The notes: a model not told the origin generated them from the sequence alone. A DNA stretch of 64,000 nucleotides from Candidatus Poribacteria bacterium (GCA_965215015.1 OZ244042.1:10768-74767); one strand, 5' to 3'. Positions 30,648 through 56,716 are shown, counted from the first letter of the stretch. Translations and numbers: made by a program.

Positions 30648-32126
30648 ATGAGGTTCAACATGCCTACGAACAGCGAACAAAACCTGCGTCCGAATATCCT
30701 CTGGATCTGTACCGACCAGCAGCGTTACGATACAATCGGTGCGCTAGGCAACCATTATGTCTCAACCCCGAACATCGATCAGCTGGTCGAAAAGGGGGTC
30801 GCTTTTACCCACGCCTACTGCCAGAGCCCAATCTGCACGCCTAGCCGGGGCAGTTTCCTCACAGGTATGTATCCGAGTGCGGTGCATGTCAACGGAAACG
30901 GCAACGAATACTTCCCGGACAATCCACCCCTTGTAACGCGCCTGCTCGCAGACGCTGGGTACGACTGTGGATTGATTGGCAAGCTACACCTCGCTAGCGC
31001 TTATGGTCGTATTGAACCCCGCGTGAACGACGGATACCGATATTGGCAGTATAGCCATGCACCCCGCGATGATTGGGAAACGGGACACGACTACGCAGAC
31101 TGGGTGCGATCCAAAGGGCATACTCTGAGGGAATTGACCAAAAGCATTAACGGTGTTCCGGCTGAACTCCATCAAACCACTTGGTGTGCGGAAAAGACGA
31201 TCGAATTTATCCGACAAGAACGGGACGCGCCGTGGTTGGCAAGTGTGAATATTTACGACCCTCACCCACCCTTCAATCCGCCCAAAACTTACAGGGATAT
31301 ATTCAATCCGGCGGATATGCCGGGCCCCCTTTTCCGAGAGAGCGATTTGGAACAGCAGCGGAAGCTCGAAGCAGTTGATTTCCAGTCAAAGGGGCACCCT
31401 CCAGAGGAATTGGATATCCGCAGCCCAATCGTGCCCCAGCCTCCGGGGACAGCGGAGCCGGCTTCAGCGGGAGGACGCGATGCCAAGACCTTGCAAGCAG
31501 CATATTACGCTATGATTAAGCTAATCGACGATGCGCTGGGGTGTATCTTGGAGACACTGGAGGAAACTGGGCAGCGTGAACGGACAGTGATTATCTTCAC
31601 CAGTGATCACGGAGAAATGCTCGGTGATCATGGATTGATTCAGAAGGGCTGTCGGTTTTACGAAGGATTGGTCCGTGTGCCGCTCATCTTTTCTTGCCCC
31701 GGATACTTTGAAAGGGGGGTGAGAAGTGATGCGTTGGTAGGGCTGCTCGATAAGGCACCAACCTTGTTGGATTTGGCTGGTTTGGAAATCCCTGATCGTA
31801 TACAAGGCATGTCGCTGCTGCCAATCCTCAAGGGGGAGGTCTCTCCCTCTCATCACCGGGATTTTGTCCGCTGCGAATTCTATGATGCCTTAGATCAGCC
31901 GGACAGTACCTTTGCCACGATGTACCGGGATAGGCGATATAAGCTGGCGATTTACCACGGGCACCAGCACGGAGAACTCTACGACCTTGAAACGGATCCG
32001 GGGGAATTTGAAAATCTGTGGGATGTGTCGAGCGTACAAAACCTCAAGTTGGAGCTGATGAAACGAAGCTATGATGCTTCAATGATGGCGATGGACCGGG
32101 GGCCTCGACGAATTGGTCCCATGTGA
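30648..32126 (+). CDS. Sulfatase (formylglycine-dependent arylsulfatase family)
   Basis: ILWICTDQQRYDT...CQSPICTPSRGSFLTGMYP (C-x-P-x-R FGly motif). Confidence 0.9.
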   Translation: MRFNMPTNSEQNLRPNILWICTDQQRYDTIGALGNHYVSTPNIDQLVEKGVAFTHAYCQSPICTPSRGSFLTGMYPSAVHVNGNGNEYFPDNPPLVTRLLADAGYDCGLIGKLHLASAYGRIEPRVNDGYRYWQYSHAPRDDWETGHDYADWVRSKGHTLRELTKSINGVPAELHQTTWCAEKTIEFIRQERDAPWLASVNIYDPHPPFNPPKTYRDIFNPADMPGPLFRESDLEQQRKLEAVDFQSKGHPPEELDIRSPIVPQPPGTAEPASAGGRDAKTLQAAYYAMIKLIDDALGCILETLEETGQRERTVIIFTSDHGEMLGDHGLIQKGCRFYEGLVRVPLIFSCPGYFERGVRSDALVGLLDKAPTLLDLAGLEIPDRIQGMSLLPILKGEVSPSHHRDFVRCEFYDALDQPDSTFATMYRDRRYKLAIYHGHQHGELYDLETDPGEFENLWDVSSVQNLKLELMKRSYDASMMAMDRGPRRIGPM

Positions 32127-32201
32127 TAAAATGGTTAAATTGAAAACGCACCGCTCACATTTCACTTACACCATTGCAACGAAGAAAAAGGGGCACAACT
32201 A

Positions 32202-33638
32202 ATGTCTGATTCCAATAATCGTCAGCCTAATATAGTCTTTATTTTAACCGATGATCAGGGACCTTGGGCGGCGGGCTGCTGTGGCAACGATGAAGTTCGC
32301 ACACCAAACATAGATCGACTTGCGGAGACGGGTGTTCTCTTCGATAACTTTTTCTGTACCTCTCCCGTCTGTTCTCCAGCTCGGGCTAGTCTGATGACCG
32401 GACGGATTCCATCAGCGCATGGTGTACACGACTGGATTCGGGATGGGAATATGCCGCCGAATTCCGCGAGGTATCTTGAAGGTCTGACGTGCTACACCGA
32501 TGTGCTCGGTGAAAACGGCTACACCGTCGGTCTCAGTGGGAAGTGGCACCTCGGCGATAGTATGACCCCACAGCACGGCTTCAGTCACTGGTTTGCGATG
32601 CCACTGGGTGGTAGTAAGTATAATGACGCAGAGATGATTCGGGACGGAGCTGTGGCAGTGCAGCCCGGCTACGTTACCGATATCATCACGAACGACGCCT
32701 TGCAGTTTATTGAGGCAAACAAAAATCAACCTTTTTACCTCAGTGTTCACTACAACGCACCCCACACGCCGTTCGACGGGCACCCACAGGATATTGTGGA
32801 TTCTTACGATGATTGTCCATTCAAAACGTGTCCCCAAGAAGCGGCACACCCGTGGGCTGTCCCCGGTGCTCGGATACATTTAGGAAACAGGGAATCGTTG
32901 AAGGGCTACTTTGCGGCGATTACAGCAATGGACTTGAACGTCGGTCACATTCTAGAGAAGCTTGAGGGGCTTGGCCTGCGAGAAGACACACTAATCATCT
33001 TCAGCAGCGACAACGGCTATTCCTGTGGACATCACGGGTTCTGGCACAAAGGAAATGGCACCTTCCCGCTGAATATGTATGAGAACTCCGTCAAGGTGCC
33101 CTTTATTATGAGCCACCCCGGAGAGCTTCCACAGGGGCGCGTTACCACAGCGATGGCAAGTCAATACGATTTCATGCCGACCCTGCTTGACTACCTCGGC
33201 TTGGAGATGCCAGCAGATCCATTGCGCCCCGGGCGGAGTTTCCGAGCAGCTTTGCTCGGTGAAACGGACGACGCACAGGATGAGGTCGTCATTTTTGACG
33301 AATACGGTCCCGTCCGAATGATTCGGACGCAGGAGTGGAAATATGTGCACCGCTACCCTTATGGGCCCCATGAACTCTATGATCTGGTGAACGATCCAGA
33401 CGAGCGGAAAAACCTCGTGGACGAGAAATCGAAGGGCGCACTGGTGAAGGAGATGCGTCAACAACTCGCCTCCTGGTTCAGCCGATATGTTTTGCCGGAG
33501 CTTGACGGGACACGATTCCAAGTTACAGGTCTGGGTCATGCTGCCAAGATTGAGCCGGGGGCCTGTGGTGAAGGTGCTTTCCATCCGCTGCCAGAGGACT
33601 GGCACGAAGTCCGACAACGGCTATTCCAGCATAGGTAG
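32202..33638 (+). CDS. Sulfatase (formylglycine-dependent)
   Basis: NIVFILTDDQG...CTSPVCSPARASLMTGRIP (C-x-P-x-R). Confidence 0.9.
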   Translation: MSDSNNRQPNIVFILTDDQGPWAAGCCGNDEVRTPNIDRLAETGVLFDNFFCTSPVCSPARASLMTGRIPSAHGVHDWIRDGNMPPNSARYLEGLTCYTDVLGENGYTVGLSGKWHLGDSMTPQHGFSHWFAMPLGGSKYNDAEMIRDGAVAVQPGYVTDIITNDALQFIEANKNQPFYLSVHYNAPHTPFDGHPQDIVDSYDDCPFKTCPQEAAHPWAVPGARIHLGNRESLKGYFAAITAMDLNVGHILEKLEGLGLREDTLIIFSSDNGYSCGHHGFWHKGNGTFPLNMYENSVKVPFIMSHPGELPQGRVTTAMASQYDFMPTLLDYLGLEMPADPLRPGRSFRAALLGETDDAQDEVVIFDEYGPVRMIRTQEWKYVHRYPYGPHELYDLVNDPDERKNLVDEKSKGALVKEMRQQLASWFSRYVLPELDGTRFQVTGLGHAAKIEPGACGEGAFHPLPEDWHEVRQRLFQHR

Positions 33639-39483: not shown

Positions 39484-40401
39484 TCATTTTCCGTATTTGA
39501 ACCGTGCAATCGCGCCCTGCTCTACTAATTCTGCGCGGGCGTAATGCGCGGGCATCTGAGGCGATTTCCATCGCCCGGCAACCTGCATATTCACAACAGA
39601 CGCCCCGGCTTGGGCAAGCGAGACAGCAGAACCGATACGAAGGGAGTGTCCAGAAATCTTGCCTTCCACACCCGCCGCGCGTGCCCTACGCTTGATAACC
39701 TTCCTTACACCATCAATCGTTAGCCTGCCCCCAGTTATGTTATCACCCCGACGAATCCACCGAAAGAGTGGACCATCAGTGATATCCCCCGATTCACAAT
39801 ACCGCTTTATCGCCTCCCGCGTGGGATCCCCAATATACAGCGTCACACCGAGGACGCCCGCCGTACCCGGGTGGGTCTTTGACTGATAAACCCTCAACGC
39901 ACTATCAACATCCTCTACATCTACCGCGACCGCTTCACTAATGCGTAACAGACAGTCACTCATCAGTCGAATCAGGGCCGAATCTCTCAGTCCAGCAACG
40001 GTTTCCTCCGCTTCGGCAAGCGCACAGATTCTCTCTACTTCATCCCACGTTATGCCATCCATCTGTCCTCGGCCTCTGCCTTTGCCTTTACGTCGAATGC
40101 CGGCGAGTGCCTTTTCCGTAATCTCAAAGGAGAGCTCCTTTGCCCCCACGCTGTGATTCTTCACCATCCATTTGACTGCAGCAACGATTTTACTGATGGT
40201 CGATGGCGACCTTCCGTTTTGATACAACTCTGTGATATAGTTTGCGAGTAGGTTATCGCTCAGGGAATGTCCATCCAACCAAATTTCCAACTGTTGCATC
40301 GCGAGACGATACGTCTCGACGGTGCTCGGTGCAACGCTCGCTTTGACTAATTCCTCCGTTTCGTCGCTGATAACGACCTGCTTCCAAGCTGATGCATTCA
40401 T
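39484..40401 (-). CDS. Tyrosine site-specific recombinase/integrase (XerC/D-like size)
   Basis: C-terminal catalytic signature ...GHSLRIGSAVSLAQAG...VAGRWKSPQMPAHYAR (R..H.LR...GRW.S...Y). Confidence 0.85.
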   Translation of the reverse strand: MNASAWKQVVISDETEELVKASVAPSTVETYRLAMQQLEIWLDGHSLSDNLLANYITELYQNGRSPSTISKIVAAVKWMVKNHSVGAKELSFEITEKALAGIRRKGKGRGRGQMDGITWDEVERICALAEAEETVAGLRDSALIRLMSDCLLRISEAVAVDVEDVDSALRVYQSKTHPGTAGVLGVTLYIGDPTREAIKRYCESGDITDGPLFRWIRRGDNITGGRLTIDGVRKVIKRRARAAGVEGKISGHSLRIGSAVSLAQAGASVVNMQVAGRWKSPQMPAHYARAELVEQGAIARFKYGK

Positions 40402-40448
40402 GATTATCCCTCCATGACTAAGTTCCTAATCTCTCTGATAGTTCTATA

Positions 40449-40735
40449 GAATCCTGATTCTGACAAGTTACACCTCAGCCTCCAAAATCATCGCCGCATT
40501 CTGTCTGAATCGGGATTTACTGGATTTTAGGATTCACAGGATTGACTCTATCCATTGCCATTGGCTATCCTGAAAATCATTCCATCTTGAGAATCCTGAT
40601 TCTGACAAGTTACACCTCAACCTCCAAAATCATCGCGACATTTGTCTGAATCGGGATTTACTGGATTTTAGGATTCACAGGATTGACTCTATCCATTGCC
40701 ATTGGCTATCCTGAAAATCCTTCCATCTTGAGAAT
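40449..40735 (+). repeat. Two tandem copies of a 142-bp unit with four GGATT iterons each, upstream of the integrase gene
   Basis: Units 40449-40590 and 40591-40732 are about 95% identical. Each contains cGGGATTtactGGATTttaGGATTcacaGGATTgact plus an inverted AATCC. The array is bracketed by the 8-bp direct repeat TTCTATAG (40442-40449 and 40741-40748). Confidence 0.85.
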
Positions 40736-41121: not shown

Positions 41122-41377
41122 GGAGAATTAAAGGACCCTATTTTTACCGCTTTTTCGCTTGATTGGTGTTATTAATCTTGATATAATATCCACAACCGAA
41201 CACTTTAGAATACATAGCAGCCAATATAAGAAGGCTGCTGTTAAGAAATTGTGCAACAGACCGTGAGCTTTCAAGAAAAAACTCGGGCTCTCTTCGCGCC
41301 ATGTACTCTCTTTAAGCCTTACGCAGCTGATACCAAGCAAAGGCCTCAGAAAAACTATCTATAAGGAGACACTCCCT

Positions 41378-44300
41378 ATGTTTAAGCATCATTTCATTTC
41401 CGATTCGATGGGAATTTGCAAACAACGGCAGCACCTCATCACACTTATTAGTCTATTGATGTGCATCGTAGGTTATCAAAATGTATACCCCCAACAACAG
41501 ATTGCCCAAGATGCCTACGCTATTTTTCAACAGAGCTGCCTCATCTGCCATGGACCCGACGGTGCCTATCGAGAGACACTCCTAATGGAACACAACTCAC
41601 TCATCGAAAACGGGACAGTGGTCCCCGGAAACCCCAATGCCTCCGAACTGTATAACCGGCTCCTGACGACTGAGATAGCCAAACGGATGCCCCTTGGACA
41701 ACCCCGGCTATCCACTCAAGCGATTGCCACCATCCGAAACTGGATATTCGCTGGCGCACCCGATTGGGCGGCAACCCCCGCAGCCGATAGACGCTTTATC
41801 TCTCCCGGTGAAATACTCAATACCATCGAGACTCACGTCATGTCGCTGGCACCGTTTGACCGTGCCTTTGCCCGGTACTTCACAATGACACACCTCTATA
41901 ACGCAGGTGAGACCACGCGAGCTCTTGACAGCTATCGTAACGGCCTCTCGAAACTGGTCAATAGCCTCTCATGGGGGAGTACCGTCACCAACCCCCAACC
42001 CATTGACCGACAAGGCACCATCCTCTACATTGACCTGCGACACTACGAGTGGGATCGCAATGATGGGTGGGGGCAGATAGAAGCGGCATATCCCTATCAC
42101 ATCGGGTTTGATGCACCGACACAGACCGCGCTACGGGCCCAACTGACCCGGTTACAGACGGCGATGAAGTCTGATATACCATCGGTTCATGTCGACTGGT
42201 TTATAGCACAAGCCTCTTTACCTCCACTCTACCATGATTTACTCTCTCTCCCCTTAACGGATAAAGAGTTAGAGACCCGATTAGAAGTCGATGTTGTCCG
42301 TAACCTGCAAAATGCACCGGGGGTGCGTGTCTGGCGGGCCGGCACCAACAATTCAGGTGTCTCCAATCACAACCGAGTGATAGAACGCCACACCTCTCGC
42401 TATGGTGCCTATTGGAAAAGTTACGACTTTGGGGGGAGTGTGGGTACACAGAACATCTTCACCCATCCCCTGTCATTCACCCATGATGGTGGTGAGGTTA
42501 TCTTCAACCTACCCAACGGGTTACAGGGATACTACCTTGCCAATGGGGCCGGTTTTCGCCTAAATGAGGCACCGATAAACATTGTTTCTAATCCCGCAGC
42601 GAGTGATCCGACGGTGCGGAATGGTTTATCCTGTTTCGGTTGCCACACAGAGGGTATGAAGCCATTTGAGGACCAAGTCCGTTCGGTGATAGCGAATAAT
42701 ACCGCTCCCACTTATGACAAAGCGCAGGCGTTGCGGCTCTACGTGGCAAAATCAGAGATGAACGCGCTTGTGGGTGAAGATATGAATAGGTACAGGGTTG
42801 CCCTTGAAGCGACGGGCGGGGCGTTTGATGACATTGAACCCATCTCCCGTTTCCACGAGGCATTTCAGGAGGAGGTAGACACAGCACACGCCGCAGCCGC
42901 GGTTGGGTTAGAGCCGGAGGCGTTCTTGGAAAAGATACGTGAGAATATAGGGCTACAGGATATCGGCTTGCTGGTGTTAGACAGTGAGGCTGGAAGTATG
43001 AAACGGGACACCTGGACATCGAGTTTTCGGGATATAGTTTTTGCGTTGGATTTCCCGGAGCGTTTCACCCCTCCCACGGCGATAACCCCGCCGGTAGTGA
43101 CACCGGGTACGGTTGTGTATATCCCGGACCCAAACCTGCGTGCGGCAATAGCGGAGGCACTGGACAAGAGCCCCAATGCTCCGATTACTGCCGAGGAGAT
43201 GGCAAAGTTGAGCAGGCTCGATGTGCCGCGCAGGGGCATCCGTGATTTGACAGGGCTGCAGTATGCAACCAATCTGACACGGTTAAATATTAACGACAAT
43301 CAGGTCTCCGACATCTCACCGCTAGCGGGCTTGATCGAACTGCGCGAGCTCCGGATTCACGACAACGACAACCTCTTGTCCGATATATCGCCTGTGAGAG
43401 GCTTAACCAATCTCACTTATCTTCAGTTTGACCGCTCTACAGTCTCTGATATATCTCCCGTGAGAGGCTTAACCAATCTTACTTACCTTGAGTTTGACAA
43501 CACTTTGGTATCCGATATATCTCCCGTGAGAGGCTTAACAAATCTCATTACCCTTAAGTTTGGTCACACTTCGGTATCCGATATATCTCCGGTGAGGAAC
43601 TTAACAAATCTCACTCGCCTTGAGTTTGAGCACACTTTGGTATCTAACCTATTGCCAATTGCGAGATTAATCAATCTGGAGCGGTTACATTTGGGAAGTG
43701 ATAATATCTCCGACCTGTCGCCGGTTTCAGGATTAATCAACCTCAAACACATTAGTGGTGGTTGGGGCAGCTCTATATCCGATTTATCGCCCTTGGCAGG
43801 CTTAACAAAACTGGAGCAGATACATATGCACGGCGGAAAGATATCAGATCTCACGCCTTTAGCAGGCCTAACCGGCTTGAAGGAACTGCATTTTCGGGAC
43901 AACGACATATCGAATCTCGCCCCCCTCGCAGGGTTAACACAGCTAACTCGTCTGCAGCTCGCGAACAACAATATATCGGATCTCTCCCCCCTTGCAGGGT
44001 TAACCAACTTGAAATGGCTAGTGATCCATGACAACGAGATTTCTGACATTTCTCCGCTGCAGGGACTCCGCGAGAATATAACGACGTTCGTTTGGCATGA
44101 CAACCCGGGATTCCCAAAAGTGGGACCGTCAATCGAGGGGCCGTGGTTATGGGTTGTATTACCGGAAACAAGACCGAGTAGCAGTAAGGATTTACTGTCA
44201 GAAGTGAGCGGGGGGGCGGTAACAGAGACGGAGATTGCTACCCATGGGGCAACCGTGGGAAGTTCTGTAGGTGATGATGTATGGACCTACCGCACACTCC

Positions 44301-45649
44301 CGCCTACGGGCTGGGCTAATGTTCGCCAAATGCTTGACGGCCACATCGATGGTGCCAGCCTCTACGGCACGGTGTCCTTGCATTCACCACGACAACAGGA
44401 CACAACACTATACGTTGGCAGTCATAACGATTTTAAGGTCTGGCTCAACGGGACTTTGATTTACGAGTCTCTCCGTTACCATGCGAGTTTCGGTTACACG
44501 GATTCTCTGCCGGTCACGCTGAAGCAGGGAAGAAATGTGCTATTGGTAGCCGTTAGAGCCCAGTATAATGCCTTTTTTGGGTTTGAACCCGGCACCGAAT
44601 ATACTGTGGCGAACCCCGGTGTCGGATACACTTTTTCCAAGACACCCATTCATATAGGCGATACCTTTACCCTTAATCTTCGCGCCGAAACGGTCTCCGA
44701 CTTGGCAGGCTGGCAGTTCGATATTGCCTTTGACCCGGCTGCCCTCGAAGCCATTGACGTCAGCGAAGGCAATTTCCTGAAGGCAGATGGGGGCTCCACC
44801 TTCTTTCAGGGTAGGAGCATCGATAACGCGACAGGTAAAATCTCAGGACTCAGTGCGGCGCGATTGGCTGCCCAAGGTGTAAATGGCACCGGCACCCTGC
44901 TGCAGGTCAGGTTCAGGGCGAAATCTGCCGGTGAAACAGAGTTGGTGCTGCAAAACTTTCAGTTTGGCTCCATCACCGGCGATACTATCCCTGCAGGACC
45001 GCGTCAAATTCGCATCGCTGTCGAGGGACGCCTGGCGACCGGGGACGTGAATCGAGATGGTGTGGTCAGCATTTTGGATCTCATTCTCGTCGCACAGCAG
45101 TTGGGGAAAAAGGTGGCCCCCAACTCACCGGTAGATGTCAACCGAGATGGTGTTGTCAGCATCCTTGACCTTATCGGCATCGCGCAGGGGATCGGGAACA
45201 CCACAGCACCTGCCGCCCCGGCACCCTCCTCACTGGAGGTAAATCCTGAGACCATAGCGGCATGGATTGCACAGGCACAGGTGGCAGATGACGGTTCCCT
45301 TGCCTTCAAACAGGGTATCGCAAATCTCCAAAACCTGTTAGCCGCGTTGATTCCTGAAGAGACTGCGTTGTTGGCAAACTATCCGAATCCGTTTAACCCG
45401 GAGACGTGGATACCGTATCAGTTGGCAACCCCTGCGGAAGTTACATTGACCATCTATGATAGGAACGGGGAGGTCGTTCGCCGGTTAGCCGTGGGACATC
45501 GAGGCGCGGGTATGTATCAGAGTCAAAACCGTGCGCTATATTGGGACGGACGGAATCAGCTGGGTGAACCTGTCGCCAGTGGCCTCTATTTTTACACACT
45601 GACAGCAGGCACATTCACGGGGACGCGGCGGATGTTGATACTCAAATAA
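41378..45649 (+). CDS. Giant secreted multidomain protein: dihaem cytochrome c region + leucine-rich repeats + cohesin-like + dockerin-like + T9SS C-terminal sorting domain
   Basis: CxxCH haem motifs at about nt 41536 (SCLICHG) and about nt 42633 (CFGCHTEG). About 15 22-aa LRRs (LTNLTYLxFDxTxVSDISPVRG). Cohesin-like WQFDIAFDPAALEAIDV. Two dockerin repeats DVNRDGVVSILDL. C-terminal NYPNPFNPETWIPYQL...WDGRNQLGEPVASGLYFYTL...RMLILK. Confidence 0.85.
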   Translation: MFKHHFISDSMGICKQRQHLITLISLLMCIVGYQNVYPQQQIAQDAYAIFQQSCLICHGPDGAYRETLLMEHNSLIENGTVVPGNPNASELYNRLLTTEIAKRMPLGQPRLSTQAIATIRNWIFAGAPDWAATPAADRRFISPGEILNTIETHVMSLAPFDRAFARYFTMTHLYNAGETTRALDSYRNGLSKLVNSLSWGSTVTNPQPIDRQGTILYIDLRHYEWDRNDGWGQIEAAYPYHIGFDAPTQTALRAQLTRLQTAMKSDIPSVHVDWFIAQASLPPLYHDLLSLPLTDKELETRLEVDVVRNLQNAPGVRVWRAGTNNSGVSNHNRVIERHTSRYGAYWKSYDFGGSVGTQNIFTHPLSFTHDGGEVIFNLPNGLQGYYLANGAGFRLNEAPINIVSNPAASDPTVRNGLSCFGCHTEGMKPFEDQVRSVIANNTAPTYDKAQALRLYVAKSEMNALVGEDMNRYRVALEATGGAFDDIEPISRFHEAFQEEVDTAHAAAAVGLEPEAFLEKIRENIGLQDIGLLVLDSEAGSMKRDTWTSSFRDIVFALDFPERFTPPTAITPPVVTPGTVVYIPDPNLRAAIAEALDKSPNAPITAEEMAKLSRLDVPRRGIRDLTGLQYATNLTRLNINDNQVSDISPLAGLIELRELRIHDNDNLLSDISPVRGLTNLTYLQFDRSTVSDISPVRGLTNLTYLEFDNTLVSDISPVRGLTNLITLKFGHTSVSDISPVRNLTNLTRLEFEHTLVSNLLPIARLINLERLHLGSDNISDLSPVSGLINLKHISGGWGSSISDLSPLAGLTKLEQIHMHGGKISDLTPLAGLTGLKELHFRDNDISNLAPLAGLTQLTRLQLANNNISDLSPLAGLTNLKWLVIHDNEISDISPLQGLRENITTFVWHDNPGFPKVGPSIEGPWLWVVLPETRPSSSKDLLSEVSGGAVTETEIATHGATVGSSVGDDVWTYRTLPPTGWANVRQMLDGHIDGASLYGTVSLHSPRQQDTTLYVGSHNDFKVWLNGTLIYESLRYHASFGYTDSLPVTLKQGRNVLLVAVRAQYNAFFGFEPGTEYTVANPGVGYTFSKTPIHIGDTFTLNLRAETVSDLAGWQFDIAFDPAALEAIDVSEGNFLKADGGSTFFQGRSIDNATGKISGLSAARLAAQGVNGTGTLLQVRFRAKSAGETELVLQNFQFGSITGDTIPAGPRQIRIAVEGRLATGDVNRDGVVSILDLILVAQQLGKKVAPNSPVDVNRDGVVSILDLIGIAQGIGNTTAPAAPAPSSLEVNPETIAAWIAQAQVADDGSLAFKQGIANLQNLLAALIPEETALLANYPNPFNPETWIPYQLATPAEVTLTIYDRNGEVVRRLAVGHRGAGMYQSQNRALYWDGRNQLGEPVASGLYFYTLTAGTFTGTRRMLILK
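43300..44060 (+). repeat. Intragenic ~66-bp tandem DNA repeats encoding the LRR units of the giant protein
   Basis: Consecutive units such as gatatatctcccgtgagaggcttaaccaatctcacttatcttcagtttgacc are repeated with high nucleotide identity. Confidence 0.8.
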
Positions 45650-50460: not shown

Positions 50461-50853
50461 TAATTTTTGGATGGTCAAGAATCAATAACCCCGTCCTAAA
50501 GGTCAGAGCTTGTACGAAGCGAATGCCACCCGCCGCTCCACAAGCTAAACCGTTGACTACACAGATGGTAACTTAGCTGTCTCTGCGTGGTAGCAGTCAC
50601 CAGATGATACGGATGCCTCCTTATGGAGAATTACTGATGTTCGTCCCAGTTGTAAACAAAAAATCAAAAACTGTTGATGCCTACCAAGCCCGCCCGTGCC
50701 CGGCGGTGGATTAAACAGGGCACAGTCAATCCCTTCTTTAACAAAGGTGTGTTCTGTGTTCTATTAAATATTGAGCCATCTGATAGCCAACTTGACGATA
50801 AGGAGCGCAGTTGCCTCCACACCATAGAAAGATGGGGAACTGCGAAGATCTTG

Positions 50854-51522
50854 ATGATAACCCATGCGATGGAAGATTATCTGAAGACAGTCTACTTGCT
50901 GCAAGAAGGTCGGGAGAAAGTCTCTACCTCTGCTATAGCCCAGCAAATGGATGTTTCTGCCGCATCTGTCACCGGTATGATCCGAAAGTTGGCAGCGATG
51001 GGATTCTTGAATTACGCCTCCTATCACGGCGTTGAATTGACAGAAGGTGGAAAAAAAATCGCTCAAGAAATTATTCGTCATCATCGGTTACTGGAACTTT
51101 ATCTCGTGGAAATCATGGGATTTACTTGGGACAAAGTGCACGATGAGGCGGATAAACTGGAACATGTTATCTCCGAGGAGTTTGAGGAAAGGATGAGCGA
51201 GGCGTTGGGACATCCGACAACCGACCCGCACGGACACGCTATCCCAGCCAAGGATGGTGCACTCCAAGAAGTTACTTATGAAACGCTGACAGAGGTGAAT
51301 GTGGGCAGTTCTGCTACCGTTCAGCATGTCAATGATAATAATCCCGAAATGCTGCGTTACCTCGATCAGCTGGGTTTGCTGCCGGGCACCGTTGTCCAAG
51401 TTATGGCGAAAGAACCATTTAATGGACCATTGCGTTTGAGGATTGACCAGACCGAACACTTTGTTGGTCTCGAAGTCGCAGGAAATGTGTTTGTAAGTCC
51501 TCAGACCACCTTATCTGCATGA
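50854..51522 (+). CDS. DtxR/MntR-family metal-dependent transcriptional repressor with C-terminal FeoA/SH3-like domain
   Basis: MEDYLKTVYLL...SAASVTGMIRKLAAMGFL...RHHRLLELYLVEIMGFTWDKVHDEADKLEHVIS. The ORF track starts at 50674, but homology begins at MITHAMEDYL (ATG 50854 or 50869). Confidence 0.85.
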   Translation: MITHAMEDYLKTVYLLQEGREKVSTSAIAQQMDVSAASVTGMIRKLAAMGFLNYASYHGVELTEGGKKIAQEIIRHHRLLELYLVEIMGFTWDKVHDEADKLEHVISEEFEERMSEALGHPTTDPHGHAIPAKDGALQEVTYETLTEVNVGSSATVQHVNDNNPEMLRYLDQLGLLPGTVVQVMAKEPFNGPLRLRIDQTEHFVGLEVAGNVFVSPQTTLSA

Positions 51523-51566
51523 CGTTTGCACCGATCGAAATTTGTGTGATGCCAATTTAAGAAAGG

Positions 51567-52544
51567 GTGAGGAAAAGTATGCACATAATCTATGGGTTGT
51601 TAGCTTTCGTGATGATATTATTTGTTACTTGCGACCATCAATCGGACAAGGCTAGCCAGAAGACGTCAAGCTCAACAGGTATATCCAGCCAGAAACCGAT
51701 TCGCGTAGTGACAACAATCGGCATGATTACCGATATTGTTCAGAATATTGGAGGGGACCGGGTTAATGCGACGGGATTGATGGGACCCGGCATTGATCCA
51801 CACCTATACAAAGCGAGTGAAGGCGATGTGGCTCGGCTCGCAGGTGCTGACCTCATCTTTTACAATGGTCTGCATCTAGAGGGGAAAATGGCCGGTGTGC
51901 TCGAAAGGATGCAGGACCAAGTAAAGACAGTTGCTGTAACACAGGACATTGATAGGGAGATACTGTTGGCTCCACCAGAGTTTGAAGGGGCATACGACCC
52001 GCACGTATGGTTCAATGTCACTCTTTGGATGAAAGCGGTTCAACGTATACGGGATACGCTCATTGAGGTGAATAAGAGCAGTGCAGCGTTGTACCAGACG
52101 AATACAGAAGATTACCTAGCAAAGCTAGAGGAACTGCACAATTATGTAACACAGCAAGCGGAGCGGATACCTTCTGACCGAAGAGTGCTCGTCACGGCTC
52201 ACGATGCCTTCAATTACTTTGGCCGCGCTTACGGATTTGAAGTGCGCGGTCTTCAGGGAATTAGTACCGCAACTGAAGCGGGCACAGCTGATGTGCAAGC
52301 ACTCGTGCGGTTTATCGTCGAACGCCGCATCCCTGCTATGTTTGTCGAAACATCCGTGCCCCGCCAGAGCATCGAGGCAGTACAAGCCGCTGTCAAAGCG
52401 AAGGGATTTGCTGTAGAGATTGGCGGGCAGCTTTTCTCAGATGCAATGGGAGCGACGGGAACTCCAGAAGGCACGTACATCGGGATGGTGCGTCATAACA
52501 TTGATACAATCGTCGCATCGCTTCTGCAATCGGCGACAGACTGA
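51567..52544 (+). CDS. Metal (Mn/Zn/Fe) ABC transporter substrate-binding protein, TroA/ZnuA cluster-9 family
   Basis: Signal peptide; VVTTIGMITDIVQNIGGDRV...DPHLY...DPHVWF are typical of TroA/ZnuA/MntC. Confidence 0.85.
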   Translation: MRKSMHIIYGLLAFVMILFVTCDHQSDKASQKTSSSTGISSQKPIRVVTTIGMITDIVQNIGGDRVNATGLMGPGIDPHLYKASEGDVARLAGADLIFYNGLHLEGKMAGVLERMQDQVKTVAVTQDIDREILLAPPEFEGAYDPHVWFNVTLWMKAVQRIRDTLIEVNKSSAALYQTNTEDYLAKLEELHNYVTQQAERIPSDRRVLVTAHDAFNYFGRAYGFEVRGLQGISTATEAGTADVQALVRFIVERRIPAMFVETSVPRQSIEAVQAAVKAKGFAVEIGGQLFSDAMGATGTPEGTYIGMVRHNIDTIVASLLQSATD

Positions 52545-52631
52545 TAGGGGTGTGGCCACCTTTTGTTTGTAGGGTGCAACAATCGTTGAACCCTATAACA
52601 TGTGTTCACCCAAAAATAGATAGGCGAACGA

Positions 52632-53522
52632 GTGTCGGTGTGCGAGAGGAGGACGAATGATATGGCAAAATCCCTTAATAATCCATTGGCGATTGAGGTT
52701 GCAGATTTGACCGTGGCGTACCGGGATCAACCTGTGTTGTGGGACGTAGACCTTAACGTACCATCGGGGGTCCTCATGGCAATCGTCGGGCCCAACGGTG
52801 CAGGCAAAACGACGCTCATCAAAGCAATCTTGGGGCTAGTGACACCGGCAGCCGGGCGAATATTAATCTACGGTCAACCCTACGCCGATCAGCGGCAACT
52901 TGTGGGATACGTCCCGCAACGCGGGAGCGTTGATTGGGATTTTCCGACAAGTGTATTGGACGTAGTCATGATGGGATGTTATGGTGCACTGGGATGGGGA
53001 CGTCGCCCGGGCCGTCAGGAACGTGTACGAGGAATGGAAGCCCTTGAAAATGTTGGGATGCTTGACTTTGCAGACCGGCAGATTAGTCAGCTCTCCGGCG
53101 GACAACAGCAGCGGGTCTTCTTGGCACGGGCACTAGTGCAGGACGCCCAAGTGTATTTCATGGACGAACCATTTCAAGGCGTTGATGCGACGACCGAGCG
53201 GGCAATCGTTGCGCTTCTGCAAGACCTGCGCGCTGCTGGTAAGACCGTCATTGCTGTTCATCACGACTTGCAGACAGTGGCGGATTACTTCGATTCCGTA
53301 ACGCTGCTAAACGTGCGTCGAGTTGCTAGTGGTCCAGTGAAGGAAGTATTTACAGAGCAGAATCTCCGACTGGCGTACGGTGGTCGCGTCGCTTTTCTCA
53401 GTCGAAATGATCAGGCTGATGGGACCACAGGACAACCTGATGCAACATTATCTCAACCTGTTGGCGAAACCACAACTGTACAGGTTGACAAACCGATGGA
53501 CACCTCGCTCCGTCTATCTTAG
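52632..53522 (+). CDS. Metal ABC transporter ATP-binding protein
   Basis: Walker A GPNGAGKTT, signature LSGGQQQR, Walker B VYFMDEP; probable start ATG at 52662. Confidence 0.9.
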   Translation: MSVCERRTNDMAKSLNNPLAIEVADLTVAYRDQPVLWDVDLNVPSGVLMAIVGPNGAGKTTLIKAILGLVTPAAGRILIYGQPYADQRQLVGYVPQRGSVDWDFPTSVLDVVMMGCYGALGWGRRPGRQERVRGMEALENVGMLDFADRQISQLSGGQQQRVFLARALVQDAQVYFMDEPFQGVDATTERAIVALLQDLRAAGKTVIAVHHDLQTVADYFDSVTLLNVRRVASGPVKEVFTEQNLRLAYGGRVAFLSRNDQADGTTGQPDATLSQPVGETTTVQVDKPMDTSLRLS

Positions 53523-53553
53523 AGTAAACTTACCTTAGGAGGTTATTTTTTTA

Positions 53554-56223
53554 ATGACACGAAAACTGTTGGTTGTTACTGCTACACTTTTGATTATCTT
53601 TTCTCTAAAGGTTCAAGCCAAATCTGGTGATGCACCGTATCAAAAGCTACAGGTAAACACGGCACAAGCAGTTACCTTTGAATCAACATCTACTGATGTT
53701 GGAAATCTAGTGGTTATCAACGGTAACGAGCATATCGTCCAGCCGAAGAACGCTTTCGATTTAGCGGGACACGGTTTACGTTTCACGCCTAATGACCCGG
53801 ACGGATACGATGTATCTATGCCAGAAGAGATTGAGTTTGTTAAAGCCTTTGGGGATGTATTGAATCTGAATGATGACGACAGTAAGAAGATCGATATCGG
53901 GTTTAATTTTCCATTTTTTGGTGAGGAACATACGGAGGTTTTTGTCAATTCAGACGGAAATTTAACATTCGGCAAAGGGGATGCCGCTTCGCAGGCGCGG
54001 GACTTGCAACGATTTTTGGGAGAGGCCCCTCGCATCGGTGTGTTGTACACTGATCTGAATCCGTTCTCCGGCGCAACTGTTGAGGTAAAGCAATCCTCTA
54101 GACAAGTTACCGTCACTTGGTTCAATGTTGAGGCCTTCAGCGAATACCTCTTTAGTGGAGAGGCCATTACAATGCAGGTTGTCCTGTTCAATACAGGCAT
54201 CATTGACATCGTTTTTGAAAAGTCTGATATAAGAACAGGTATTGTTGGAATATCCCCCGGCGGACTCAATGATGCCTTTCAAGTGACTTTAGTGGACTAC
54301 TCCGACAATTTGCCACTTGAAGGGACAATGGGGGCTATCGCAGAAGTCTTCGTAGAGCTACCAACCGTCAACCTACAGAATGTTGCTCGCGAGTTTTACC
54401 GGACCCATGGCGACGATTTTGATAGTTTAGTTCTCTTCACTAATTTTGAATCGAACCTAGACCAGGTCGGGGTTCTAGCATTTGCTATTTCCGTCCAGAA
54501 TGATGTGTTAGGCATTGGCAACCCAAACAGAGGCGAAATCTTTCCACAATTTGATGACACCGCCGCTTATGGCAGCCAGGGCAAACTAAGAACCTTCCTC
54601 GGTATGAAAAACTTGAAGGTGTGGGAGGACGATCCCTTGGAGAATACTTTTGGTCCAGCGACATCCACGCTGAGTGTACTCGCGCACGAATTTGGGCATC
54701 GGTGGATCGCTTACATCGATCCACCCGATTTATTAGGTCGGGATTTTGCACATTGGAGTTTTTTCCTGCATACCAGTGGGTCTGTTATGGGCGGCAATGA
54801 TATCCAAGATAACAGGGATGGCACTTTTACTACCCTGGCACCAAAAGATCTTTATAGCCCGCTCGATTTATATTTGATGGGGTTGCTAAAGCCAGAAGAG
54901 GTTCCCCCTACCTTCTTGGTGGCCAACGCCTATGATTTGGACATCCCACCTCCTTATGATGAACAGTCTATCTTTTCAAATGATTTACGATACTTGAATC
55001 CCTTGGGAGACGTTAGTTTTCGGGGGGAAAAACAAGAGATAAAAATTGAAGATATTATTTCGATAAACGGAGAGCGAATCCCCGATGCTGAATCCTCTCA
55101 GAAGGACTTTCGGACTGCGTTTATCCTGCTTGCCATGGGTGAGGAGGGACCCACTCCTGACGAGATCGACAAGGTGGAGGCTGTCAGACTGTACTGGCCC
55201 CCTTTCTTCCATCGCGCCACGAACAACTTGGCAACGATGGTGAGCACCCTCGATGGTTCACCTGAAAACGTTAGGTTGCCCAGTGGAGATGAACACGAGG
55301 AGCGCATTTTTAATTTTACACTGCATCTAAATAACGGGTTAAATATCATTTCACCGCCGCTACGCCCACCAACGCCGCTGACAGCGCGCAGCTTTATGGA
55401 AATGGTCGGATCGACGGTTATTATCGCTGCCTTGGAAAATGGAGAGTTCATATCTCATACCAACGCAACACCCGGGGATGGATTTCCGATTGAAGGTGGA
55501 CGGGGGTATATTGTCAACACGCCGGAAGGAGGGACGGTCACATTCACAGGAGAACCCTGGGACGATTCCGATTCGACCCAAGCTGCTGAATCGGCGAGTG
55601 CCCCACCTGTCAACGGAACGCTTTGGGCGTTCGTCATTGATGGGGTTCTGGGCAGAGAAGGGTTCCAAGAATCTTACCAAATTACCGTTGATAATCTCAG
55701 GATAGGTAGTCGATTGACGGAAGGATTAGCAGAAGCAGGGGGCAGATTTACTTTAGGCTATGCCGATTTGAGTCGAACCCCAATCGTCCAAGTTGGCGAT
55801 ACTTTGCGTTTGACGCTTACCGATATCACTTTAGGTAAACCTATCGGCAAGACAGACTATACCATCACAGCCAATGATATTCGGAAGGCATATACAACAC
55901 TTCACCTAACCTTCGATAGCATTGCCCCGATGCACACCCAGCTGCTTCAGAATTACCCAAATCCATTCAATCCTGAGACGTGGATTCCATATCAACTCGC
56001 CTCTGATGCGGATGTGTCTATCATCATCTACACCCCATCAGGTGAACAGATACGCACAATCTCGTTAGGTAGTCAAGCTGCTGGCTCATATCTTACCAAA
56101 GGACGCGCAGCTTATTGGGACGGGCGCAACGGACGTGGTGAGCTAGTCAGTAGTGGCCTCTATTTTTACCATCTACAGGCTAGTGACTTTACGGATGTCA
56201 AACGGATGATCATCCTAAAATAA
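53554..56223 (+). CDS. Secreted HEXXH zinc metallopeptidase with T9SS C-terminal sorting domain, inserted inside the metal ABC operon
   Basis: Signal peptide MTRKLLVVTATLLIIFSLKVQA; LAHEFGHRW (about nt 54682); C-terminus NYPNPFNPETWIPYQLAS...YWDGRNGRGELVSSGLYFYHL...KRMIILK. Confidence 0.8.
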   Translation: MTRKLLVVTATLLIIFSLKVQAKSGDAPYQKLQVNTAQAVTFESTSTDVGNLVVINGNEHIVQPKNAFDLAGHGLRFTPNDPDGYDVSMPEEIEFVKAFGDVLNLNDDDSKKIDIGFNFPFFGEEHTEVFVNSDGNLTFGKGDAASQARDLQRFLGEAPRIGVLYTDLNPFSGATVEVKQSSRQVTVTWFNVEAFSEYLFSGEAITMQVVLFNTGIIDIVFEKSDIRTGIVGISPGGLNDAFQVTLVDYSDNLPLEGTMGAIAEVFVELPTVNLQNVAREFYRTHGDDFDSLVLFTNFESNLDQVGVLAFAISVQNDVLGIGNPNRGEIFPQFDDTAAYGSQGKLRTFLGMKNLKVWEDDPLENTFGPATSTLSVLAHEFGHRWIAYIDPPDLLGRDFAHWSFFLHTSGSVMGGNDIQDNRDGTFTTLAPKDLYSPLDLYLMGLLKPEEVPPTFLVANAYDLDIPPPYDEQSIFSNDLRYLNPLGDVSFRGEKQEIKIEDIISINGERIPDAESSQKDFRTAFILLAMGEEGPTPDEIDKVEAVRLYWPPFFHRATNNLATMVSTLDGSPENVRLPSGDEHEERIFNFTLHLNNGLNIISPPLRPPTPLTARSFMEMVGSTVIIAALENGEFISHTNATPGDGFPIEGGRGYIVNTPEGGTVTFTGEPWDDSDSTQAAESASAPPVNGTLWAFVIDGVLGREGFQESYQITVDNLRIGSRLTEGLAEAGGRFTLGYADLSRTPIVQVGDTLRLTLTDITLGKPIGKTDYTITANDIRKAYTTLHLTFDSIAPMHTQLLQNYPNPFNPETWIPYQLASDADVSIIIYTPSGEQIRTISLGSQAAGSYLTKGRAAYWDGRNGRGELVSSGLYFYHLQASDFTDVKRMIILK

Positions 56224-56307
56224 CGCAAGTTGCCACTTAAAGCCCAAATGCCCGGTGGGTTGGCCGCCAATTCTTGGCTCATTGAGCCTAGAACAGTTTA
56301 GTGAGGG

Positions 56308-56540
56308 GTGCTCATAAAGGAGTCGGCACGCCCAGCGTGCCGTAAGCCCCACAATCGTTATAGTATATGGCTTGGCTAACACGCAACTGTCATTGAACTC
56401 CCAACATAATTTGAAGAACAAAGTACCTCCAACCCCGTAGGTGGGGCATCTTGCCCTATCTCCCACCTGGGGCCCATATCTGTATCCGTGCAATCTGCTG
56501 CATCTGCTAAATTCGAGATTCAGACAATTATTATGAGCAC
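56308..56540. mobile_element. MITE-like nonautonomous element (233 bp) with ~16-bp terminal inverted repeats
   Basis: Left end TGAGGGGTGCTCATAA, right end TTATGAGCACGCCTCA, with GTTTAG immediately outside both ends (possible TSD). Internally homologous to the 27337-27461 copy. Sits between the metallopeptidase and permease genes. Confidence 0.6.
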
Positions 56541-56716
56541 GCCTCAGTTTAGTGAGTGTTCGGGTATTTGCGATAAACGCACCAGATTCGTTATAGGCCC
56601 AACGGGCCAACAGGGACCAAATCGAAAAAGAGGAAACGAGGGCTTTTGTCTTTGCTCCCTTTCTCACCCTTTCACTTGCTTCCTTTCATTAATAGGTAGC
56701 CACAATAGGTCAGCGA

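What the first reader, a model, noticed from the sequence alone, without database searches (positions are those of the whole stretch)
41378..45649. Secreted dihaem cytochrome c fused to LRR, cohesin-like and dockerin-like modules and a T9SS sorting domain
Two CxxCH haem-binding motifs (about nt 41536 and 42633) sit in an about 600-aa N-terminal region. It is followed by about 15 leucine-rich repeats, a cohesin-like beta-sandwich (WQFDIAFDPAALEAIDV), two dockerin-type DVNRDGVVSILDL repeats and a T9SS C-terminal domain. Combining a redox haem domain with cellulosome-type assembly modules and T9SS export is highly unusual and suggests a surface-anchored electron-transfer or scaffold protein.
Basis: partly seen in the sequence, partly recalled or inferred. 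Interest (0 to 1): 0.65.

Follow-up and report, generated by a model that had tools for sequence, protein, structure and literature searches.

The report
Poribacterial dihaem LRR cohesin-dockerin surface protein
This gene encodes a large secreted protein of a Poribacteria bacterium: a strongly conserved, undescribed two-haem domain joined to a hypervariable leucine-rich-repeat binding surface, cohesin and dockerin assembly modules and a surface-sorting tail, and it is one of many copies per genome of a family nobody has characterised.

Summary
ORF 41378-45649 (+) encodes 1423 aa. It has a Sec-type signal peptide and two CxxCH motifs (nt 41537 and 42632). It also has about 12-14 internalin-type 22-aa LRRs, a jelly-roll domain and a cohesin (Pfam 44 bits; Foldseek matches type II cohesins). 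A duplicated-segment dockerin (33.5 bits) and a C-terminal sorting domain (TIGR04183 24.5 against a cutoff of 23) follow.

The architecture is not a one-off. The genome is Candidatus Poribacteria. At least 579 relatives occur in species-representative genomes, with at least 11 copies in one chromosome, and nearly all keep the full architecture.

Both CxxCH motifs are invariant. The first lies in a PSCyt1/class I cytochrome c domain. The second lies in a core of about 440 aa with no Pfam, NCBIfam or PDB relative, although the AlphaFold model is confident (pLDDT 92.7). This dihaem module is widespread: 1568 clusters at E<1e-30. Elsewhere it forms the extracytoplasmic part of Ser/Thr kinases or FHA proteins, or is fused to WD40 or FGE-sulfatase domains.

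Within the family the head is under strong purifying selection (dN/dS 0.11). Variation is concentrated on the LRR concave face.

Best reading: a surface-displayed redox head targeted by a diversifying LRR receptor and assembled through cohesin-dockerin pairs. The chemistry is unknown.

The parts
41159..41187 (+). Promoter-like site (TTGATT-17-TATAAT with an upstream TG)
   Evidence: This is a consensus match only.
41363..41368 (+). Shine-Dalgarno AAGGAG, 9 nt before the ATG
   Evidence: Read directly from the sequence.
41378..41491 (+). Sec-type signal peptide (aa 1-38). It has a basic n-region, the h-region LITLISLLMCIVG, and a likely cleavage site before QQQ.
   Evidence: the pattern is conserved in paralogues, many of which have VSA|QQQ. 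Inferred; no signal-peptide predictor was run.
41495..41752 (+). PSCyt1 / class I cytochrome c domain (aa 40-125). Haem 1 is bound at CLICH (aa 54-58, nt 41537-41551). Met104-Pro105 (nt 41687-41692) is the candidate distal ligand.
   Evidence: PSCyt1 scores 23.7 against a cutoff of 22. The family profile hits FoxE 5mab at 1.9e-10, Kuenenia c-552, CcoP and c6. C, C, H, M and P are invariant.
41753..43057 (+). Undescribed alpha/beta haem-binding core of about 435 aa (aa 126-560). Haem 2 is bound at CFGCH (aa 419-423, nt 42632-42646). Invariant polar residues include R166, N195, D273, Y285, S326, N332, R333, D350, E373, N380, Y385 and R543.
   Evidence: No Pfam hit even at E=10. No NCBIfam hit and no PDB sequence hit. 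AF2 pLDDT is 92.7, with no Foldseek PDB hit below E=2. There are 1568 clusters at E<1e-30. dN/dS is 0.11.
43058..43117 (+). Pro/Thr-rich linker (aa 561-580)
   Evidence: Low pLDDT and high entropy.
43118..44122 (+). LRR domain (aa 581-915): N-terminal cap, 12 units of 22-24 aa (LxxLxxLxLxxNxISDISPLxG) and a C-terminal cap. Concave-face positions are hypervariable and the number of units varies between paralogues.
   Evidence: LRR_4 127.8 bits. InlA-like at 211 bits, far below that model's cutoff. Entropy by repeat register is. dN/dS is 0.58 at variable sites against 0.16 at scaffold sites. Indels are shown.
44135..44632 (+). Beta jelly-roll domain (aa 920-1085), resembling the GH2 N-terminal / galactose-binding-like fold
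   Evidence: Weak BetaGal_ABD2 hit, E=0.006. AF2 predicts strands. Foldseek hits GH2 enzymes.
44645..45022 (+). Cohesin module (aa 1090-1215)
   Evidence: PF00963 44 bits against 24.1. Foldseek matches type II cohesins 3l8q, 4u3s and 1qzn, and non-cellulosomal cohesins 2jh2 and 2xdh, at E 3.5e-8 to 1e-6 with TMt 0.6-0.75.
45041..45181 (+). Dockerin (aa 1222-1268) with two DVNRDGVVSILDL Ca-loop plus helix segments
   Evidence: PF00404 33.5 bits against 22.9. Motifs lie at nt 45044 and 45134. AF2 places helices after each loop.
45230..45367 (+). Conserved helical hairpin linker (aa 1285-1330) preceding the sorting domain
   Evidence: AF2 helices. It is shared, together with the CTD, with other Poribacteria proteins.
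45380..45646 (+). C-terminal beta-sandwich sorting domain (aa 1335-1423, NYPNPFNPETW...), T9SS type-A-like
   Evidence: TIGR04183 24.5 against 23. FlgD_ig 37.8 against 27, and PF18962 14.9 against 27. A 62%-identical CTD in L001 scores PF18962 29.3 against 27.

Best explanation
The gene encodes one paralogue of a Poribacteria-expanded family of modular cell-envelope proteins.

**Proposed pathway**
1. The protein is exported by Sec.
2. In the periplasm it receives two covalently bound c-type haems. Haem 1 sits in a PSCyt1/class I domain, probably with His/Met ligation. Haem 2 sits in a large, undescribed, strongly conserved core.
3. It is then sorted to the cell surface through its C-terminal beta-sandwich domain.

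**Proposed roles of the parts**
- The conserved dihaem head supplies a fixed redox activity, either catalytic or sensing. Its many invariant polar residues favour an active or ligand site over simple electron shuttling.
- The LRR solenoid has a hypervariable concave face and a variable repeat number between paralogues. It supplies target recognition, so each paralogue would direct the same chemistry to a different ligand.
- The single cohesin and single dockerin allow paralogues to dock to each other or to cohesin-bearing anchor proteins.

**Shown versus inferred**
- Shown: domain identities, their conservation, the family expansion and the pattern of variability.
- Inferred: haem loading, surface location, the binding role of the LRR, cohesin-dockerin pairing and any redox chemistry.
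For: **Domains**
- Both CxxCH motifs, and Met104-Pro105, are invariant across close and distant relatives.
- The mature protein has no cysteines other than the four in the two CxxCH motifs.
- The signal peptide is conserved.

**Extracytoplasmic location of the head module**
- In distant relatives the module always follows a signal peptide or a transmembrane segment. Examples are Pkinase-TM-module in P0189 and P0203, and FHA-TM-module in P0178.
- This fits periplasmic haem c attachment.

**Selection pattern**
- The head is the most conserved part, with entropy of about 0.2 bits and dN/dS 0.11.
- LRR register positions 5, 6, 8, 10, 11 and 13 carry 1.4-2.6 bits, against 0.1-0.8 at scaffold positions.
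- dN/dS at those variable positions is 0.58 against 0.16 at scaffold positions, and 22% of pairs exceed 1.
- Same-genome paralogues at 93-94% identity differ mainly at these positions.

**Family expansion**
- At least 579 genomic relatives, all of the best 78 in Candidatus Poribacteria, with at least 11 in one chromosome.

**Sorting and docking partners**
- The CTD and helical linker are shared with unrelated Poribacteria proteins.
- A cohesin-plus-CTD protein lies directly upstream of a family member in L001 and L021. It is a candidate anchor.
Against: - No experiment or operon context gives the head a chemistry. Neighbours are not conserved.
- The core has no structural or sequence relative of known function.
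- T9SS machinery in Poribacteria was not examined, and Pfam's own Por_Secre_tail model is below threshold for this protein.
- dN/dS at the LRR variable sites averages below 1 and dS is near saturation. Positive selection is suggested, not shown.
- Use of the module in kinases suggests it could be a sensor or binding domain rather than an enzyme.
- Cohesin-dockerin pairing specificity is unknown.
Confidence: 0.55

Rival explanations
1. Haem-based sensor or receptor. The dihaem module would be a ligand- or redox-sensing domain (O2, NO, H2O2 or redox state), not an enzyme. In Poribacteria it would be tethered to the surface as part of an adhesin or receptor complex, with the LRR, cohesin and dockerin doing the main adhesion or assembly work.
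For: In distant relatives the module is the extracytoplasmic domain of transmembrane Ser/Thr kinases and FHA proteins. That is the typical position of a sensor domain. It also co-occurs with other sensor- or binding-type domains such as WD40 and FGE-sulfatase.
Against: The Poribacteria proteins have no transmembrane segment and no output domain, so a sensed signal has no obvious route into the cell. About 30 invariant polar or aromatic residues across more than 100 divergent sequences suit a catalytic site at least as well.
Confidence: 0.2
2. Extracellular electron-transfer component. On this reading, surface-anchored cytochromes would be chained by cohesin-dockerin contacts to carry respiratory electrons to or from external acceptors or donors.
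For: There are two conserved c-type haem motifs, a surface-sorting domain and self-assembly modules. The best PDB hit for haem domain 1 is FoxE, an Fe(II) oxidoreductase.
Against: There are only two haems in 1423 aa, 365 residues apart in sequence. Known conduits pack many haems closely. No porin or multihaem partner is nearby. Hypervariable LRRs and more than 10 paralogues per genome are hard to explain for a respiratory wire. The FoxE similarity covers only about 50 residues of the class I domain.
Confidence: 0.08
3. Periplasmic PSCyt-type protein acting on imported oligomers. Here the C-terminal domain would be a structural Ig-like module rather than an export signal, and the cohesin and dockerin would be non-functional relics.
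For: Published analysis of PSCyt proteins predicted periplasmic or cytoplasmic locations and a possible link to carbohydrate and sulfatase metabolism (PMC5615132). The window carries sulfatases. PF18962 is below threshold for this protein.
Against: The CTD, helical linker, cohesin and dockerin are all under purifying selection, with dN/dS 0.13-0.16. They are retained in 76-77 of 78 loci. The same CTD ends unrelated secreted proteins, which is how a sorting signal behaves.
Confidence: 0.12

Closest known systems
Planctomycete-specific cytochrome c (PSCyt1-containing) modular proteins of the PVC superphylum (PSCyt1-PSCyt2/DUF1549-PSD1/DUF1553 and related groups)
   Same: Both have an N-terminal PSCyt1 class I haem domain followed by a large conserved domain of unknown function. 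Both are fused to carbohydrate- or protein-binding modules, occur in many copies per genome, and have unknown function (PMC5615132).
   Different: The large domain here is not PSCyt2, PSCyt3 or any PSD family (no Pfam hit), and it carries its own invariant CxxCH. No partner gene is conserved next to it. The LRR-cohesin-dockerin-CTD tail is not part of the described PSCyt architectures.
Internalins and other bacterial 22-residue LRR surface proteins (InlA, InlH)
   Same: Both have a 22-aa LRR unit with conserved LxxLxLxxN and a capped solenoid (NCBIfam InlA model 211 bits). Variation is concentrated on the concave face.
   Different: Scores are far below the internalin cutoffs (211 against 1600). 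There is no inter-repeat Ig region and no LPXTG or GW anchor. The organism is a diderm, and a haem head is attached.
Non-cellulosomal cohesin- and dockerin-bearing proteins and cellulosomal scaffoldins
   Same: A bona fide cohesin fold and a duplicated-segment dockerin. There is also a candidate anchoring protein with cohesin plus a surface-sorting domain.
   Different: There is no glycoside hydrolase or CBM catalytic cargo. One cohesin and one dockerin sit in the same polypeptide. Anchoring would be through a CTD rather than an SLH domain or sortase.
T9SS type A cargo proteins of Bacteroidota (for example gingipains)
   Same: An extreme C-terminal beta-sandwich of about 85 aa matches TIGR04183. 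The cargo would be folded and cofactor-loaded in the periplasm before export.
   Different: The phylum is Poribacteria, where the machinery was not verified here. The Pfam model is below threshold for this copy. A conserved helical hairpin precedes the CTD. From my own knowledge, I know of no c-type cytochrome described as T9SS cargo.
Dihaem enzymes with an electron-relay haem plus an active-site haem (bacterial cytochrome c peroxidase/MauG, TsdA)
   Same: This is a resemblance in how it may work only: a class I His/Met-type haem domain sits next to a second haem in a domain rich in invariant polar residues.
   Different: No sequence or fold similarity was detected to any of them.

Membership tests
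PSCyt1 / class I cytochrome c (PF07635) | Profile score at or above the Pfam gathering threshold | tested here: met
   23.7 bits against 22. 36 of 45 distant relatives also match, with a best E-value of 2.9e-17. The family profile hits PDB class I cytochromes, including FoxE at 1.9e-10.
PSCyt1 / class I cytochrome c (PF07635) | CxxCH haem-attachment motif with a downstream conserved Met as distal ligand | tested here: met
   C54, C57, H58, M104 and P105 are invariant in 111 and 65 sequences.
PSCyt1 / class I cytochrome c (PF07635) | Covalently bound haem in the protein | not testable with these tools
   Needs haem staining or mass spectrometry.
PSCyt1-PSCyt2-PSD1 (DUF1549/DUF1553) planctomycetal proteins | Presence of PSCyt2, PSD1 or another PSD domain after PSCyt1 | tested here: not met
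   No Pfam hit in aa 125-581 at E up to 10. None of these families appears among the 25 most frequently matched families listed for the 45 relatives.
Cohesin (PF00963) | Profile score at or above the gathering threshold | tested here: met
   44 bits against 24.1, at aa 1093-1192.
Cohesin (PF00963) | Nine-stranded beta-sandwich fold matching solved cohesins | tested here: met
   Foldseek E 3.5e-8 to 1e-6, probability 1.00 and TMt 0.6-0.75 to type II and non-cellulosomal cohesins. The model's pLDDT is 82-93 in this region.
Cohesin (PF00963) | Binds a dockerin | not testable with these tools
   Needs a binding assay.
Dockerin type I (PF00404) | Profile score at or above the gathering threshold, and two Ca-binding loop-helix segments | tested here: met
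   33.5 bits against 22.9. DVNRDGVVSILDL occurs twice, 30 aa apart. Helices follow each loop in the model, at moderate pLDDT of 64-74.
T9SS type A C-terminal sorting domain (TIGR04183 / PF18962) | Profile score at or above the curated cutoff | tested here: inconclusive
   TIGR04183 24.5 against 23 passes. PF18962 14.9 against 27 fails. The 62%-identical CTD of the L001 protein passes PF18962 at 29.3.
T9SS type A C-terminal sorting domain (TIGR04183 / PF18962) | Located at the extreme C-terminus with a beta-sandwich fold | tested here: met
   aa 1335-1423. The model's last 80 residues are all strands at pLDDT 76-87.
T9SS type A C-terminal sorting domain (TIGR04183 / PF18962) | The genome encodes T9SS machinery (SprA/Sov, PorV, PorU, GldKLMN) | not tested
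   None was seen among the window ORFs scanned. The whole genome was not available.
Class 1 internalins (NF033189 and related models) | Full-length model score at or above the cutoff | tested here: not met
   211 bits against a cutoff of 1600. Only the LRR type is shared.
Multihaem extracellular electron-transfer cytochromes | Many closely spaced CxxCH motifs | tested here: not met
   Only two motifs, 365 residues apart.

The most novel reading that the evidence does not exclude
Poribacteria may build a cellulosome-like surface assembly whose 'enzymes' are not glycoside hydrolases. Instead they would be paralogous dihaem redox heads of a previously undescribed fold, each aimed by its own hypervariable LRR at a different target. 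The paralogues would chain or anchor through cohesin-dockerin contacts and be exported as haem-loaded cargo by a CTD-dependent pathway. This would amount to a combinatorial recognition-plus-oxidation system for external macromolecules or for other cells.
Probability: 0.15. Interest if true: 0.85.

Novelty: new variant of a known kind. Interest (0 to 1): 0.6.

Why it matters
**The undescribed haem domain**
- PSCyt-type cytochromes are among the most abundant uncharacterised protein classes in PVC-related bacteria. Published work states that nothing is known about their function (PMC5615132).
- This locus points to a separate haem-binding domain of about 440 aa. It has no Pfam or NCBIfam model and no detectable solved relative.
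- The domain has more than 1500 sequence clusters, a confident predicted structure and a set of invariant residues that can be mutated.

**What the Poribacteria family offers**
- It is a natural experiment: one conserved head and many LRR specificities.
- It includes cohesin-dockerin parts whose pairing can be tested in vitro.
- If the head is catalytic, the family would be a new way of targeting redox chemistry at the cell surface.
- If the head is a sensor, it would define a new extracytoplasmic haem sensor shared with Ser/Thr kinases.

Tried and rejected
1. **Mobile-element association.**
   - A tyrosine recombinase gene (39484-40401, minus strand) and two 141-bp tandem repeats (40443-40735) lie upstream.
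   - Neither recurs next to family members in the loci. The recombinase has no tblastn hit in the 78 Poribacteria loci, and the repeat core has no exact match in any of the 83 loci fetched.
   - I treat them as coincidental neighbours.
2. **Conserved operon partners.**
   - None was found around the 78 Poribacteria copies.
   - None was found around four distant module-only relatives.
3. **Identity of the core.**
   - Pfam at E up to 10, NCBIfam, a PDB sequence-profile search and Foldseek against PDB all gave nothing beyond the class I haem domain.
4. **Unavailable fold libraries.**
   - More distant fold relationships were therefore not tested.
5. **Exact-sequence contig look-ups.**
   - Look-ups for the window protein and for P0001 returned nothing.
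   - The cluster look-up did show the window protein is identical to P0271, on a 5.94-Mb contig.
6. **Literature.**
   - Searches for Poribacteria with cohesin/dockerin, with LRR plus cytochrome c, and with T9SS found no description of this family.
7. **Lipoprotein reading of Cys29.**
   - Rejected. That cysteine is not conserved among paralogues and no lipobox is present.

Full report
**1. The observation**

The region 41378-45649 is a single ATG-initiated ORF of 1423 codons on the + strand. An AAGGAG ribosome-binding site lies 9 nt upstream. A promoter-like site lies at 41159-41187.

CLICH is at aa 54-58 (nt 41537) and CFGCH is at aa 419-423 (nt 42632). They contain the only four cysteines downstream of the signal peptide.

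- PSCyt1: 23.7 bits against a cutoff of 22.
- LRR_4: 127.8 bits.
- Cohesin: 44 bits against 24.1.
- Dockerin_1: 33.5 bits against 22.9.
- FlgD_ig: 37.8 bits against 27.
- TIGR04183: 24.5 bits against 23.
- Pfam's own Por_Secre_tail model is below threshold, at 14.9 against 27.

I count 12 canonical LRR units of 22-24 aa plus caps, not 15. The N-terminus has the features of a Sec signal peptide, and many paralogues show VSA|QQQ at the likely cleavage site. No signal-peptide predictor was run.

**2. Organism and family**

The protein is 100% identical to P0271, a database protein on a 5.94-Mb contig. That contig carries two further paralogues at 93-94% identity.

A protein search returned more than 120 clusters at 68-94% identity. 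Nearly all cover the full length and share the same Pfam architecture.

A scan of one genome per species found at least 579 stretches encoding a relative of the N-terminal 581 aa. The best 78 loci are all from Candidatus Poribacteria MAGs, many of them closed 5-7-Mb chromosomes. At least 11 copies lie in OZ242335.1, 9 in OZ242036.1 and 7 in OY282444.1.
- All 78 loci keep both CxxCH motifs.
- 76-77 of the 78 keep the dockerin motif and the C-terminal domain.
- Copies are dispersed, with no conserved neighbours.
- Occasional tandem pairs occur (L010, L061).
- A 'headless' variant that jumps from the signal peptide to the LRR occurs in L069.

So the architecture is unusual against described proteins, but it is a standard and heavily amplified gene type in this phylum.

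**3. The haem head**

A profile of the head hits solved structures only over aa 30-120. The hits are class I cytochromes c: FoxE at 1.9e-10, Kuenenia c-552, CcoP and c6. Cys54, Cys57, His58 and Met104-Pro105 are invariant. This is the pattern of a His/Met class I haem.

The remaining 435 aa or so (126-560) have no Pfam hit even at E=10. They have no NCBIfam hit and no PDB sequence relative.

AlphaFold2, run with a 65-sequence alignment, gives a confident model (pLDDT 92.7, pTM 0.83).
- It has a helical N-terminal haem domain.
- It has an alpha/beta middle with a five-stranded antiparallel sheet.
- The second CxxCH lies at the start of a helical C-terminal part.
- Foldseek against PDB finds nothing better than E=2.

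An exhaustive HMMER search shows that the whole 520-aa module is a widespread unit. It found 6002 cluster representatives at E<1e-3 and 1568 at E<1e-30. Across 111 divergent members, about 30 positions are invariant. They include both CxxCH motifs and many polar residues: R166, N195, D273, Y285, S326, N332, R333, D350, E373, N380, Y385 and R543 in window numbering. His338 and His286 are nearly invariant.

**4. What the module is attached to elsewhere**

In other bacteria the module is fused to the following.
- WD40 propellers.
- FGE-sulfatase domains.
- LRRs.
- Cytoplasmic Ser/Thr kinase domains, across a predicted transmembrane helix (P0189, P0203).
- FHA domains, across a predicted transmembrane helix (P0178).
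- A TPM domain.
- An 8-TM TM7S3/TM198-like domain.

Hydropathy places a transmembrane segment between the kinase or FHA domain and the module. In the relatives examined where topology could be judged, the module follows a signal peptide or a transmembrane segment. This fits periplasmic haem c maturation.

The position is the one sensor domains usually occupy. That is why a sensor reading is kept as the main rival to an enzymatic one. No conserved neighbouring gene was found around four module-only relatives.

**5. The variable part**

Within the Poribacteria family, entropy is lowest in the head. It is about 0.2 bits over aa 276-450. It is highest in the LRR region, which also varies in repeat number.

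Folding the LRR onto its 22-residue register shows where the variation sits.
- Positions 5, 6, 8, 10, 11 and 13 carry 1.4-2.6 bits. These are the x positions of LxxLxxLxLxxNxI, which form the concave beta-face in known LRR structures.
- Scaffold positions carry 0.1-0.8 bits.

Nei-Gojobori estimates over 274 gene pairs give the following dN/dS values.

| Region | dN/dS |
|---|---|
| Dihaem head | 0.11 |
| LRR scaffold positions | 0.16 |
| LRR variable positions | 0.58 |
| Jelly-roll | 0.26 |
| Cohesin | 0.16 |
| Dockerin + CTD | 0.13 |

At the LRR variable positions, 22% of pairs exceed 1. dS is high (0.7-1.3), so this suggests diversification and does not prove it. The two 93-94% paralogues in the window's own genome differ mostly at these same positions.

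**6. The C-terminal half**

The AF2 model of aa 895-1423 (pLDDT 76) contains these elements in order:
- a jelly-roll;
- a cohesin sandwich;
- two loop-helix dockerin segments;
- a helical hairpin;
- a terminal beta-sandwich.

Foldseek matches type II and non-cellulosomal cohesins at E 3.5e-8 to 1e-6, with TMt 0.6-0.75. It also matches GH2 enzymes. I attribute the GH2 matches to the jelly-roll, which fits the weak BetaGal_ABD2 hit.

The helical hairpin plus terminal domain (aa 1311-1423) recurs at 52-62% identity at the ends of unrelated Poribacteria proteins.
- One is the 889-aa ORF at 53554-56223 in this window.
- One is an FG-GAP repeat protein.
- One is a 585-aa protein that has an N-terminal cohesin (52 bits) and passes Pfam Por_Secre_tail at 29.3 against 27.

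The 585-aa protein sits directly upstream of a family member in L001 and L021. It is a plausible surface anchor for the family's dockerin. A tail that recurs on unrelated cargo is how a general sorting signal behaves. Whether the machinery is a T9SS was not tested.

**7. Mechanism**

The best-supported account has four steps.
1. Sec export.
2. Periplasmic attachment of two haems.
3. CTD-dependent delivery to the surface.
4. Target binding by the diversified LRR face, with the conserved dihaem head acting on or sensing what is bound, and with cohesin-dockerin contacts linking paralogues to each other or to anchor proteins.

The domain identities, conservation, expansion and variability pattern are shown. 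Haem loading, location, binding, pairing and chemistry are inferred.

An extracellular electron conduit is unlikely. The protein has only two haems, 365 residues apart, and the hypervariable LRRs and high paralogue number do not fit a respiratory wire. A purely periplasmic role is disfavoured, because selection maintains the CTD, cohesin and dockerin.

**8. Comparison and novelty**

The closest described class is the PSCyt-domain proteins of the PVC superphylum. Their function is explicitly unknown (PMC5615132). This protein shares PSCyt1 with them but not PSCyt2, PSCyt3 or the PSD domains.

It borrows an internalin-type LRR, a genuine cohesin and dockerin, and a type-A-like CTD. Literature searches found no description of this family or of cohesin-dockerin systems in Poribacteria.

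I rate it a new variant of known kinds that contains an undescribed, widespread haem domain. It is not categorically new, because no new mechanism has been demonstrated.

Noticed in passing
window 39484-40401 (-) and 40443-40735: A tyrosine recombinase gene (Phage_integrase, 60.6 bits) is followed by two near-identical 141-bp tandem repeats in the 976-bp gap before the cytochrome gene. Neither recurs near family members in the other loci examined.
   Followed up: partly
window 50674-59005: An 889-aa protein (53554-56223) carries the same helical-linker plus CTD tail, 52% identical over aa 1311-1423, and has no other Pfam domain. It sits inside a ZnuA/ABC-3 metal-uptake cluster: ZnuA 51567-52544, ATPase 52632-53522, permeases 56717-59005. 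The cluster lies downstream of a DtxR-FeoA-type regulator (50674-51522).
   Followed up: partly
L001 about 2359-4116 and L021 about 1768-3528 (+): A 585-aa secreted protein with an N-terminal cohesin (52 bits) and a Por_Secre_tail CTD (29.3 bits) lies directly upstream of a family member. It is a candidate anchoring scaffoldin for the family's dockerin.
   Followed up: partly
L069 5285-7966 (+); L010 and L061: L069 holds a 'headless' family variant in which the signal peptide joins straight to the LRR-cohesin-dockerin-CTD part. L010 and L061 hold tandem duplicates of full-length family genes.
   Followed up: no
P0189, P0203, P0178, P0172 (distant relatives): The dihaem module forms the extracytoplasmic part of transmembrane Ser/Thr kinases, an FHA protein and an 8-TM TM7S3/TM198-like protein. 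This suggests use as a sensor domain outside Poribacteria.
   Followed up: partly
family codon alignment (loci L001-L078): Synonymous divergence is lower in the N-terminal module (mean dS 0.66) than in the rest of the gene (0.9-1.3) for the same gene pairs. This could reflect gene conversion among paralogues or a codon or RNA-level constraint.
   Followed up: no
window 30648-33638, 13820-17155, 4843-6387 and 19575-22640: The window also holds two adjacent sulfatases, a 1111-aa N6-methylase/Eco57I-like protein (a possible type IIG restriction-modification enzyme) and two transglutaminase-like proteins. The sulfatases fit the sulfatase-rich gene content reported for Poribacteria (my own knowledge, not tested here).
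   Followed up: no
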